A stretch of DNA of 64,000 nucleotides. Source: Anas platyrhynchos (Eukaryota). Where the stretch lies: contig NC_092619.1 of NCBI RefSeq assembly GCF_047663525.1, positions 4,565,441 to 4,629,440 on the forward strand. Reading direction: 5' to 3'. A program made the position numbers. Numbering within the stretch: the stretch's first letter is position 1; every line of letters starts with the position of its first letter. This document shows, piece by piece, positions 41,101 to 44,100 of the stretch.

Positions 41101-44100
41101 CTCCACGCTCCAGGTTTTCAAGCACACACGCATTTGTGGATCCCTCAAGTACCTATCATGGCTCTTCTGTCCACCTGGAACCCCTGCCCAGACCCCAGAC
41201 CCTTTACCTACTTCAGGGGCCACCTACTGACTAGCTGCTCCAGCTTTCAGTGCACTGCAAATGCACACAGTCACACACCGGTCCCTCATGCACACCACAG
41301 ACACAAGCATTCCAGGGCATAGCAGCATGGACCCACTACCCGAGACCCCCACCCCTTGCTGTCCAGCCCAGATTAAAGTCTGTGGGTGAATGCCCACGCA
41401 TGGGCCTCCCCCACCCAGCGCCGTGCCCCCAGTGCCGTTCCCTCAGGGCTCGGTAACGGCCGCACCCCCCTGCACACCGCTCCCCACCCAGCCCGAGAAG
41501 CACCCAAAGGTGCCGCCACTTCTGCGCATGCACAGGCGGAACTTGGGAGGCACCGAGGTTGTGGGGGGTTCGTATGTGGGGTCCCCGAGGCAGCAGAGGG
41601 GCTGAGGCAGAGGGAGGGAGGGAGGGAGGCTGGGAAGGGGAGCAGGGATGTGAGGTGATGGGGAGGGGATGAGCAGTGTGAGGAACGGGGGGGGGGAGAC
41701 GGGTTTCCACCCTATCCCGGGACATCCCAGCGCTCCCACAGGGATAAAAGGTTTCTATTTCACTTTCTACAGCTACAAGACAGGAAGTGACTGACAAGTC
41801 ATGGAAAGCAAGAATTCTAGACAGTAAGAAAGCTATGGTAATAAGTATACCGTACTTTGTTGCACATAAATTCTGTGCAACAATAAGCTATTGTAGGTAA
41901 GAATAAGCTGCACTGCTTGCTTAAATGGTTATGAATTGAAACAACTGTAATTATAACCACAGCTCTACGGTCTTTCCTCACTCTGCCAAGAATCCCTAAA
42001 TAACCTGCCAGTCCCCATAGCGCCAGCTGAAAGATGTCCTTAACATTTCTGCTGCCTCCCTGCAGCAAAAAACTCCTGCTCTAGGGGGAGGGGGGGGGAT
42101 TGCGTCCTGCAACAGCCACTCATCCGCAAGCATCTGCCTCTCTTTTGCAGCAGCACCGTGGTGAACTGGGGCATCAAGAGGCAGTATGGAGAAAATCATG
42201 GCACATCTCCTGCGGGAAACCCTTGAAGAGCTAGGGAGATACGCCTTCCCGAGATTCAAGAGGGAACTCAGTAAAATCCAGCCCGAGGAGCAGTATGAGC
42301 GCATCGAACTGGAGAGCCTGATGGGGCTGTCACGAGCAGCCCTCGCCGAGCTGCTGTGCAGCCACTACGGACAGCCCTATTGTGTGAAGGTTACAGTCAG
42401 AGTGCTGAAGGCCATGGGAAGGAGCACCCTGGCATATGCACTCCTGCACAGGCTGACCGATGGTAAGTTGGGGGAAATAAGATTCAGGCAGGGACTGGGG
42501 TAGCCCTGAGTCGAAGTGACCCATACCTGTTACTGCAAGTGCTGCAGAAGCCTGTTCCCCTTGGCACTGTACTGCCTTCAGCCCAAAATGCTGTGCCAAG
42601 ACACACACCTCAGAACCTGGTCCCATAGAGAGCAAATGCTTCCTTCTACCCAGGTCTCCCTGGAATATCTGGGTTGCACTTACATGTCTGCAGTTGGTGT
42701 AAATAACTTGTAGATGAAGCAACATGCTCTCTGCTCCAGCCTCATCCCAGAGAAGCAGCTGGAGGGTCCCTGCACAACCCCACCTCTCCCCATTGGCCCC
42801 ACTGCAGAAAGGCAGAATGCACTGGATGGGGCTCTGGGCTACACAGGGCTGGGGCACCCTCCTGGGTGGAGGGCAAGGGGTTCCTGCCCAATTCCACCAT
42901 CCCACCTTCATCAGACCTTGCACTTCCCTGGGGGAAGAAGGAGGGAACTTGACACATCAACCATTCAGATTCTTTCATAGCTGGAACTACCCTGGTGAGG
43001 TATGAATTGCACCAACTTTATTCTCCACTTCTCTACAAGGGGCAAATTTTGTCGAGCGCTACAAAAAAATTGTGATCCAGCAATCCTCTAATGTGGCTAA
43101 TGTCATCATGGCTCTCCTCCATGAACATGTACTGACCTCTGAGCAGTCTGACAGCATCATGTCAGAAAGAACCAACCACAAGAGAATGCAGAAGCTCTAT
43201 GAACTAGTGCCAACGTGGGATGTCACAAAGAAATATTGCCTGTATAAGGTTCTATGTGCAACAAATCCAATTCTCACTTTAGCATATACAGGTAAGAAAT
43301 GTACCCTTACTATCTTCCCAGCTGTGAAAAAGTCAAGATAGGGGCTGGGCCTTTCAGGATAATGAGCCAACTACAGTTGCATATAAACACCTTGTCCTTG
43401 GGATGGTCAGGAGCCATTTCTATAGGAGGTGGCAGCACATCAGTTACTGTCAAACGACAAAAGTAGAGGAGGCTATTAAGAACACATTAGGAAAACTCAT
43501 GCTTCCAGCTGAATCCCAGGACTGCAGATATAGTGCTTTAACCCTAATTTTTTTCACTTCTCTGTCTCCTCTGTCCTGCAGCTGTCCAGGCACAGGGTAG
43601 CATCATATTAAAGGGTAAGCGCTGTGTGTGCTCTATACCATCATTCCCTTGGTTTTTGAATGCATTACCCTTCCAAAGTCCCCTCCTGTCCCATTTGGTA
43701 CTGTAAAGCATTTTAAGATGGCTGAGGATCCAGGCAGTCCTTGGCCATCGGTCCCCATCCTTGAGCCATGCACTGAATGATGCTGTAAGGTGCTGCTCTC
43801 CCATACCAGAGCAAGTATCCTCTCCTGTTGCTCAGCTGCATTTCTTTACTTAGACGCTGTCTCACCTTTGCTGTGCTTCAAGCAGCCTTTCCCAAGGCCT
43901 TGAGGCAATCAAGTCACCCTGTTTTCTGGAACTCACCACTGACTCCTCTCTCTTGCAGATCCCTGGGAAGACATTTTCTATCCTCAAGGTGAGCTCTGAA
44001 CTACTCAGCATTGTCTTCCCTTTATTTACTGAATACATCATCCTCACAAAGTCCCCTCCTGTCCCATTTGGTGCAATAATGCATTTTAAGATGGCTGGGG

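What the first reader, a model, noticed from the sequence alone, without database searches (positions are those of the whole stretch)
42147..43341. ASC/PYCARD-like gene (PYD + CARD, about 192 aa) in a bird genome
Two exons encode a complete pyrin domain and a CARD with a phase-compatible GT/AG junction. That matches the inflammasome adaptor ASC (human isoform b lacks the linker exon, as here). Whether and where ASC exists in birds is uncertain to me. A clean PYD-CARD gene with an intact ORF, next to a FIIND-CARD gene, would be a compact avian inflammasome-adaptor locus and is worth annotating.
Basis: partly seen in the sequence, partly recalled or inferred. Interest (0 to 1): 0.6.

Follow-up and report, generated by a model that had tools for sequence, protein, structure and literature searches.

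The report
Duck NLRP1-like gene's PYD-CARD exons
The two exons do encode an ASC-shaped pyrin-plus-CARD module in a duck genome, but they are most likely the first coding exons of the neighbouring FIIND-CARD (NLRP1-like) inflammasome gene, not a stand-alone ASC gene.

Summary
Exon 42186-42462 encodes a pyrin domain and exon 43040-43291 a CARD. They are joined by a GT/AG intron in compatible phase, and a spliced transcript contig from a related duck shows this junction.

The CARD exon has no stop codon of its own. It ends at a conserved donor at 43291, and the 192-aa ORF needs read-through into the intron. The same transcript splices 43291 onward into mini-exons that lie in a ~373-390-bp tandem repeat array.

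RefSeq models in swan goose, two swans and two grouse join these exons to the downstream FIIND-CARD exons. In the window I could assemble one intact 681-aa ORF from 15 coding exons, all with GT-AG introns. Its order is PYD-CARD1-linker-ZU5/UPA-CARD2, with no NACHT or LRR. The FIIND-CARD2 part is closest to human NLRP1, and the His/Glu/Ser autoprocessing residues are conserved.

CARD1 and the PYD group, weakly, with the matching domains of reptile PYD-(CARD)n-FIIND-CARD genes, not with true ASC. So this is a NACHT-less NLRP1-like gene with an ASC-like N-terminus. It is already auto-annotated in relatives but appears undiscussed in the literature on ASC loss in birds.

The parts
41542..41557 (+). 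3' end of a probable non-coding first exon (CTTGGGAGGCACCGAG|gt)
   Evidence: The first 16 nt of Logan transcript L002 match here with 1 mismatch and are spliced to 42151. Weak evidence: only 16 nt.
42151..42462 (+). Exon with the start codon (ATG 42186) and the pyrin domain; ends in phase 1
   Evidence: Pfam PYRIN E 5.7e-16. Transcript L002 maps to 42149-42463. dN/dS 0.32 against Oxyura.
43040..43291 (+). CARD1 cassette exon, 252 nt, phase 1-1, with no stop codon of its own
   Evidence: Pfam CARD E 2.4e-6. L002 maps exactly to 43039-43291. The exon is skipped in Cygnus olor isoform X3, P0067. Skipping it keeps the frame.
43292..43341 (+).
   Evidence: GTAAGA donor at 43292. The TAG at 43339 is CAG in goose, Oxyura and other ducks, where read-through ends 7 codons later.
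43582..43614 (+). Linker mini-exon m1 (AVQAQGSIILK), phase 1-1
   Evidence: AG/GT flanks. Matches Cygnus and Oxyura models.
43653..48485 (+). Two blocks (43653-45592 and 46589-48485) of about 5 tandem 373-390-bp units, split by a CR1 insertion. The units carry 30-36-nt phase 1-1 mini-exons: 43959-43988, 44332-44361, 44705-44740, 45096-45131.
   Evidence: Tandem Repeats Finder. Mini-exons are used in transcript L002. AG/GT flanks.
49637..49812 (+). Linker exon EA (ATAGDLPSKK...CRAEE). It contains the ATG at 49714 that the Oxyura FIIND-only model uses as its start.
   Evidence: tblastn with P0054 and P0007. AG/GT flanks.
51497..51561 (+). Exon EB (DWAEEVKPEIIGDKRGKKEIY)
51888..52108 (+). First ZU5 exon of the FIIND
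   Evidence: Pfam FIIND E 9.3e-38 on the assembled protein. dN/dS 0.10.
52236..52492 (+). ZU5/UPA exon with the autoprocessing site SF|S (F 52349-52351, S 52352-52354; protein F412|S413) and with H386 and E395
   Evidence: Aligns to human NLRP1 H1186, E1195 and F1212|S1213 in PDB 6X6C.
53109..53474 (+). Two UPA exons (53109-53234 and 53318-53474)
   Evidence: Pfam UPA-FIIND E 3.9e-23..
53671..54107 (+). Two short linker exons (53671-53712 and 54054-54107)
   Evidence: tblastn with P0054. AG/GT flanks and frame.
54777..55066 (+). CARD2 exon with the terminal stop codon
   Evidence: Pfam CARD (best stretch 587-668 of the 681-aa protein). 46-50% identical to reptile ASC and NLRP1-type CARDs.

Best explanation
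The PYD exon (42186-42462) and CARD exon (43040-43291) are the first two coding exons of one larger gene on the + strand (about 41.5-55.1 kb). Its product has the order PYD - CARD1 - repeat-encoded low-complexity linker - ZU5/UPA (FIIND) - CARD2. It is an NLRP1-like inflammasome protein that lacks NACHT and LRR.

Shown here:
- All 15 coding exons have AG/GT borders and compatible phases, and they give an uninterrupted 681-aa ORF.
- CARD1 and the linker mini-exons are phase 1-1 cassettes, so isoforms with or without them stay in frame.

Inferred from human NLRP1 and CARD8:
- The FIIND cuts itself at F412|S413.
- The N-terminal piece (PYD-CARD1-linker-ZU5) holds UPA-CARD2 in check until the N-terminal piece is degraded.
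- Freed UPA-CARD2 polymerises and recruits caspase-1 through CARD-CARD contacts.

More speculative: the ASC-shaped PYD-CARD1 head lets the protein dock onto PYD filaments of upstream sensors, or acts as a regulatory or decoy module. A short PYD-CARD product could arise by retention of the intron after 43291.
For: - Intact 681-aa ORF with 14 GT-AG introns.
- Pfam finds PYRIN, two CARDs, FIIND and UPA-FIIND on it.
- Transcript contig L002 shows the splices 5'UTR^PYD^CARD1^mini-exons.
- RefSeq models with the same exon chain exist in Anser cygnoides, Cygnus atratus, Cygnus olor, Centrocercus and Tympanuchus.
- The FIIND-CARD2 part matches human NLRP1 at E 6.4e-80, against 5.8e-46 for CARD8, with H, E and SF|S conserved.
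- No NACHT or LRR lies between CARD1 and ZU5.
- The same architecture, PYD-(CARD)n-FIIND-CARD, occurs in gecko, frogs and turtles. A turtle locus has six CARD exons upstream of FIIND exons, one of them 51% identical to CARD1.
- The bird PYD clade (97% bootstrap) and CARD1 clade (92%) sit with reptile FIIND-gene domains, not with ASC.
- There is purifying selection on the PYD (dN/dS 0.32) and ZU5 (0.10).
Against: - NCBI's Oxyura annotation splits the locus into two genes: LOC118159975 (PYD-CARD1 plus 3' mini-exons, 201 aa) and a FIIND-CARD gene starting at the equivalent of ATG 49714.
- Ensembl has short models: a 199-aa PYD-CARD1 in Anser cygnoides, and PYD+CARD2 in Anser brachyrhynchus labelled 'PYD and CARD domain containing'.
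- The only duck transcript I could retrieve stops, unspliced, after the fifth mini-exon. No RNA directly links the mini-exons to exon 49637 in a duck.
- Deep nodes of both domain trees have under 35% bootstrap support.
- The mechanistic steps (autocleavage, functional degradation, caspase-1 recruitment) are untested in any bird.
Confidence: 0.78

Rival explanations
1. A stand-alone ASC-like adaptor gene. PYD+CARD1 is transcribed and terminated separately from the FIIND-CARD gene, giving a protein of about 190-240 aa. This would arise by retention of the intron after 43291, or by a few 3' mini-exons. The protein would bridge PYD sensors to caspase-1 as ASC does.
For: - Oxyura RefSeq has a separate 201-aa gene next to a separate FIIND-CARD gene.
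- Ensembl has a 199-aa goose model and a 189-aa Anas zonorhyncha model.
- Intron read-through ends in a stop within 16-23 codons in every duck examined.
- The fold and the best PDB match are ASC and ASC-b.
- Transcript L002 ends without reaching the FIIND exons.
Against: - The CARD1 exon has no stop of its own, and its donor is conserved and used.
- Five RefSeq species models continue into FIIND-CARD2.
- The 3' tails of the short models are unconserved repeat or intron sequence.
- L002 ends in a retained intron, not at a poly(A) site.
- No AATAAA lies just after 43341.
Confidence: 0.15
2. A true PYCARD orthologue that became fused to its neighbour. The ancestral sauropsid ASC gene sat beside the NLRP1-like FIIND gene, and in Galloanserae the two merged by read-through. 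On this view ASC was captured, not lost.
For: - In the lizard Hemicordylus, the annotated ASC gene lies 10 kb from a PYD-FIIND-UPA-CARD gene on the same strand.
- The domain order is that of ASC.
- B10K and Ensembl pipelines labelled these exons 'ASC' or 'PYCARD'.
Against: - In the lizard the order is FIIND gene first and ASC second, the opposite of the duck.
- The alligator orthologue already has the PYD joined to FIIND without any CARD1.
- Turtles, geckos and frogs have PYD-(CARD)n-FIIND-CARD genes as well as a separate ASC.
- Reptile ASC matches CARD2 at 81-93 bits but CARD1 at only 49-62 bits.
- Neither domain groups with ASC in the trees.
- Five of seven charged human ASC PYD filament-interface positions are not conserved (alignment; the residue list is from memory).
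Confidence: 0.07

Closest known systems
Human NLRP1 (PYD-NACHT-LRR-FIIND-CARD)
   Same: N-terminal PYD. The ZU5-UPA FIIND has conserved H/E/S and the SF|S site. There is a C-terminal CARD. The FIIND-CARD2 part aligns to NLRP1 residues 1094-1463 at E 6.4e-80.
   Different: The duck gene has no NACHT or LRR. It has an extra CARD directly after the PYD and a linker built from repeat-borne mini-exons.
Human CARD8 (disordered N-terminus, then FIIND-CARD)
   Same: A NACHT-less FIIND-CARD protein. The expected mechanism is autoprocessing followed by release of UPA-CARD.
   Different: Sequence similarity is weaker than to NLRP1 (E 5.8e-46). CARD8 has no PYD or CARD at its N-terminus. Birds also carry a separate CARD8 with a ubiquitin-like N-terminus, only 33-38% identical (P0027 and P0031).
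ASC / PYCARD, especially the linker-less isoform ASC-b
   Same: PYD followed directly by CARD. It is the best full-length sequence and fold match.
   Different: The duck module is not a terminal two-domain protein, and the CARD exon is internal. It is not closest to reptile ASC. The model shows one continuous helix (80-99) bridging the two domains, where full-length ASC has a flexible linker.
Auto-annotated PYD-(CARD)n-FIIND-CARD genes of other tetrapods ('NLRP1-like' or 'uncharacterized')
   Same: Same architecture and the closest sequences. Examples are Cygnus, Anser and grouse (one CARD), Eublepharis (six CARDs), Rhinoderma (one), Mixophyes (three), and turtle PYD-multi-CARD loci.
   Different: The number of internal CARDs varies. 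The alligator has none. The mini-exon tandem array was seen here only in Anseriformes.

Membership tests
ASC / PYCARD | N-terminal PYD followed by a CARD, both death-fold six-helix bundles | tested here: met
   Pfam PF02758 and PF00619. AF2 pLDDT 94.4. Foldseek top hits are ASC-b and ASC.
ASC / PYCARD | Small stand-alone adaptor: the protein ends right after the CARD, with a stop codon in the CARD exon | tested here: not met
   The CARD1 exon has no stop. The conserved donor at 43291 is used in transcript L002. The stop comes only from intron read-through.
ASC / PYCARD | Orthology: domains closer to ASC of other sauropsids than to paralogues | tested here: not met
   phmmer and tblastn scores and NJ trees place the PYD and CARD1 with reptile FIIND-gene domains. 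ASC matches CARD2 better than CARD1. Deep bootstrap support is weak.
ASC / PYCARD | Conserved synteny with PYCARD | tested here: inconclusive
   Lizard ASC lies next to a PYD-FIIND-CARD gene. There is no second PYD or CARD relic in the window. Only 10-kb flanks were available.
ASC / PYCARD | Charged PYD type-I filament interface (human E13, K21, K22, K26, R41, D48, D51; list recalled from the literature, not checked here) | tested here: inconclusive
   In the gap-free alignment, E13=E and K22=R are kept, but K21=P, K26=E, R41=L, D48=S and D51=A. PMC12066828 also notes L at R41 in 'bird ASC'. Other PYDs polymerise with different residues.
ASC / PYCARD | Forms specks and recruits caspase-1 | not testable with these tools
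   Needs cell-based assays.
NLRP1/CARD8-type FIIND-CARD sensors | ZU5-UPA FIIND with the SF|S autoprocessing motif and catalytic His and Glu | tested here: met
   Pfam FIIND E 9.3e-38 and UPA-FIIND E 3.9e-23. H386, E395 and F412|S413 align to NLRP1 H1186, E1195 and F1212|S1213.
NLRP1/CARD8-type FIIND-CARD sensors | C-terminal CARD immediately after UPA | tested here: met
   CARD2 at 54777-55066; Pfam CARD at residues 587-668.
NLRP1 proper (an NLR) | Central NACHT NTPase and LRR domains | tested here: not met
   Neither is in the 681-aa product. No Pfam hit other than an RT fragment in ORFs between 43.3 and 51.9 kb, and no Walker A motif there.
Tetrapod PYD-(CARD)n-FIIND-CARD genes (database family, uncharacterised) | PYD, then one or more internal CARD cassette exons, then FIIND, then a terminal CARD in one transcript | tested here: met
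   The window assembly matches RefSeq models of swan, goose and grouse exon for exon. A direct duck transcript covers only PYD to mini-exon 5.

The most novel reading that the evidence does not exclude
In ducks, geese and some landfowl, the ASC function was not simply lost. An ASC-shaped PYD-CARD head is built into, and alternatively spliced within, the NACHT-less NLRP1-like protein. This head, as part of the long protein or as a short isoform, would be the missing adaptor that lets PYD-bearing avian NLRP3 reach caspase-1.
Probability: 0.15. Interest if true: 0.8.

Novelty: new variant of a known kind. Interest (0 to 1): 0.45.

Why it matters
Billman, Hancks and Miao (2024, PMC11258412) report that birds keep NLRP3 but lack its adaptor ASC, and they ask how NLRP3 can signal. 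A later paper repeats that ASC is absent from most birds (PMC12066828).

This locus shows that waterfowl and some landfowl encode a well-folded PYD-CARD module, but inside their 'NLRP1' gene. That has three consequences:
- It explains why some pipelines label these exons 'ASC' while others call the gene NLRP1-like.
- It warns against counting such models as ASC orthologues.
- It gives a concrete candidate to test for PYD-to-caspase-1 coupling in an agriculturally important host of influenza.

If the long protein is the only product, this is an unusual NLRP1/CARD8 variant whose N-terminal bait carries two death-fold domains.

Tried and rejected
The sequence is absent from the protein collection.
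- Supplementary table S2 of Billman et al., which lists their 8 bird 'ASC' sequences, is not held. I could not check whether those are this gene.
- Look-ups of P0033, P0016 and P0010 found no contig.
- A Biopython bootstrap run timed out. I replaced it with my own NJ code using Kimura distances and 100 replicates.
- The literature search for avian NLRP1 or ASC returned only ascarid papers.
- The third homologue search was aimed at transcripts bridging the mini-exons to the FIIND. It found only unspliced Logan contigs.
- I first took the second CARD (54.7 kb) plus the PYD to be the real ASC, as Ensembl did for Anser brachyrhynchus. I rejected this once the ZU5/UPA exons just upstream were mapped. 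The 'linker' ORF before 54777 is intronic.
- The pseudogene reading was rejected. The ORF is intact, splice sites are conserved, the PYD and ZU5 are under purifying selection, and the AF2 model is confident.

Full report
**1. The observation**

The sequence at 42147-43341 is as described.
- ATG at 42186 opens a frame that runs to 42462, followed by GTAAGT.
- A pyrimidine-rich tract and an AG precede 43040.
- Both exon ends are in phase 1, and the joined ORF is 192 aa.

Pfam scores it as PYRIN (E 5.7e-16) plus CARD (E 2.4e-6), both above gathering thresholds. The best solved-structure match is human ASC isoform 2, the linker-less ASC-b (E 4.9e-17). Taken alone, the PYD scores best against pyrin and the CARD against NLRP1's CARD.

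An AlphaFold2 model of residues 1-176 is very confident (pLDDT 94.4, pTM 0.88). It shows two six-helix bundles joined by one long helix, residues 80-99. Foldseek ranks the ASC-b filament and full-length ASC first. Domain-level rmsd is about 1 Å to cPOP1 and ASC PYDs and to the NLRP1 and ASC CARDs.

**2. Species and relatives**

Close homologues are all from Anseriformes, and one mallard entry differs by a single residue in exon 1. The window is therefore from an Anas duck. B10K annotations call truncated versions 'ASC protein, partial' in Asarcornis, Anseranas, Chauna and Penelope.

**3. The two exons are not a closed gene**

The CARD exon contains no stop. The TAG at 43339 is CAG in goose, ruddy duck and five other duck contigs, where read-through stops 7 codons later.

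A 900-nt Logan contig from a related duck (SRR31078682_60147, 95-98% identical to the window) is a spliced transcript. It joins these pieces in order:
- a short 5' exon ending at window 41557;
- 42151-42462;
- 43040-43291;
- mini-exons at 43959-43988, 44332-44361, 44705-44740 and 45096-45131;
- a final stretch that runs into an unspliced intron.

It also shows that the 43291 donor is used.

**4. What lies downstream**

The stretch 43653-48485 holds two blocks of about five 373-390-bp tandem units, interrupted by a CR1 element. Each unit carries a 30-36-nt, phase 1-1 mini-exon.

From 49.6 kb onward lie exons encoding ZU5, UPA and a second CARD. Following the swan model P0054, I assembled 15 coding exons from the window. 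Every intron is GT-AG and every phase fits, and the ORF is 681 aa without a stop. Removing CARD1, the mini-exons or exon L2 keeps the frame. Pfam finds PYRIN (9-83), CARD twice, FIIND (295-419) and UPA-FIIND (429-538).

No NACHT or LRR lies between CARD1 and ZU5.

The FIIND-CARD2 part matches human NLRP1 at E 6.4e-80, rat NLRP1 at 3.8e-76 and CARD8 at 5.8e-46. Window residues H386, E395 and F412|S413 align with NLRP1 H1186, E1195 and F1212|S1213.

**5. Comparative annotation**

RefSeq joins the same exon chain in five species:
- Anser cygnoides, 'NLRP1', 683 aa;
- Cygnus atratus, isoform X12, 710 aa;
- Cygnus olor, X1, and X3 which skips CARD1;
- Centrocercus and Tympanuchus, 608 aa.

Against this, RefSeq for Oxyura splits the locus into a 201-aa PYD-CARD1 gene and a FIIND-CARD gene. 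Ensembl has short PYD-CARD1 models and a PYD+CARD2 model labelled PYCARD. My last homologue search found no duck transcript that bridges the array to exon 49637. The single-gene model therefore rests on cross-species models plus the intact frame.

**6. Is it ASC?**

An exhaustive HMMER search and domain parsing show many tetrapod proteins of the form PYD-(CARD)n-FIIND-CARD. They occur in gecko, several frogs and turtles.

- The alligator orthologue is PYD-FIIND-CARD with no internal CARD.
- A turtle locus has six CARD exons upstream of FIIND exons. One of them is the best non-bird match to CARD1, at 51% identity.
- In NJ trees the bird CARD1 clade (92% bootstrap) and bird PYD clade (97%) sit with these reptile FIIND-gene domains and apart from mammalian, lizard and turtle ASC. 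The deeper nodes have under 35% support.
- Genuine reptile ASC proteins hit CARD2 at 81-93 bits and CARD1 at 49-62 bits.
- In a lizard, ASC lies 10 kb downstream of a PYD-FIIND-CARD gene. The two gene types are therefore old neighbours, which leaves a small chance of a fusion origin.
- Five of seven charged positions of the human ASC PYD filament interface are not conserved (alignment; the residue list is from memory). The L at R41 matches a remark about 'bird ASC' in PMC12066828.

**7. Selection**

Against Oxyura, introns are 91-93% identical. dN/dS is 0.32 for the PYD, 0.10 for the first ZU5 exon and about 1 for CARD2. CARD1 has 10 nonsynonymous changes against 1 synonymous (ratio about 3). 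By my own binomial estimate this is not significantly different from neutral. CARD1 keeps an open frame from ducks to grouse.

**8. Mechanism**

Shown: the architecture, the intact frame, conserved autoprocessing residues and confident death-fold models.

Inferred from NLRP1 and CARD8 biology:
- self-cleavage at F412|S413;
- restraint of UPA-CARD2 by the N-terminal fragment;
- release of UPA-CARD2 after N-terminal degradation;
- CARD2-driven caspase-1 recruitment.

Speculative: the PYD-CARD1 head docks on PYD filaments such as NLRP3, or serves as bait or regulator, with cassette splicing tuning this.

**9. Literature and verdict**

Billman et al. 2024 (PMC11258412) state that ASC is missing from birds apart from 8 sequences and that NLRP1 is present in most birds. 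They do not mention an ASC-like head on bird NLRP1.

The finding is real, but it is best filed as the 5' part of a NACHT-less NLRP1-like gene. That gene is already auto-annotated in relatives. Its relevance to the question of ASC-less birds is untested.

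Noticed in passing
window 28741-30611 (+): An uninterrupted 496-aa ORF has six LDL-receptor class A repeats (Pfam E 4e-63) and an EGF_CA. These are followed by a fragment of avian retrovirus gp85 envelope (E 5e-11) and a TM-like stretch. It looks like an intronless LDLR-type module fused into an endogenous retroviral env.
   Followed up: partly
window 7341-8381 (+) and 21784-22830 (+): Two intact single-exon olfactory receptor genes (PF13853, E 4e-50 and 1e-47). A CR1 reverse-transcriptase fragment lies between them at 15015-16175 (-).
   Followed up: partly
window 43653-45592 and 46589-48485: A tandem array of 373-390-bp units in which each unit supplies a 30-36-nt in-frame mini-exon (GPxxQSGxxxQG-type peptides). 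The protein linker is therefore encoded by a satellite-like repeat. The whole block is duplicated about 2.9 kb apart around a CR1 insertion.
   Followed up: partly
window 43040-43291 compared with L001 10726-10974: The CARD1 exon is more conserved at the DNA level (95.6%) than the flanking introns (about 91%). Yet 10 of its 11 substitutions are nonsynonymous (dN/dS about 3). The counts are too small for significance.
   Followed up: partly
L003 (Hemicordylus capensis CM050095.1) 1-395 and 10001-12136: The lizard's annotated ASC gene sits 10 kb downstream, on the same strand, of a 552-aa PYD-FIIND-UPA-CARD gene.
   Followed up: partly
L011 (Emydura macquarii JAOCMD020002141.1) 378-11192 and 18877-21045: Six tandem CARD exons are followed by FIIND exons on one strand. 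RefSeq annotates them as several CARD-only genes, one of which is named 'ASC'.
   Followed up: partly
L004 (Logan ERR14244245_432948) 2997-3239: An 80-aa bird-like PYD ORF (P0142, 60 bits to the window PYD) has many radical substitutions and no Pfam hit. It may be a decaying copy in an unidentified species.
   Followed up: partly
P0199 and P0067 (Cygnus olor LOC121062508 X1 and X3): These swan isoforms read through after the UPA exon and end without CARD2. Products lacking the signalling CARD are therefore predicted.
   Followed up: no
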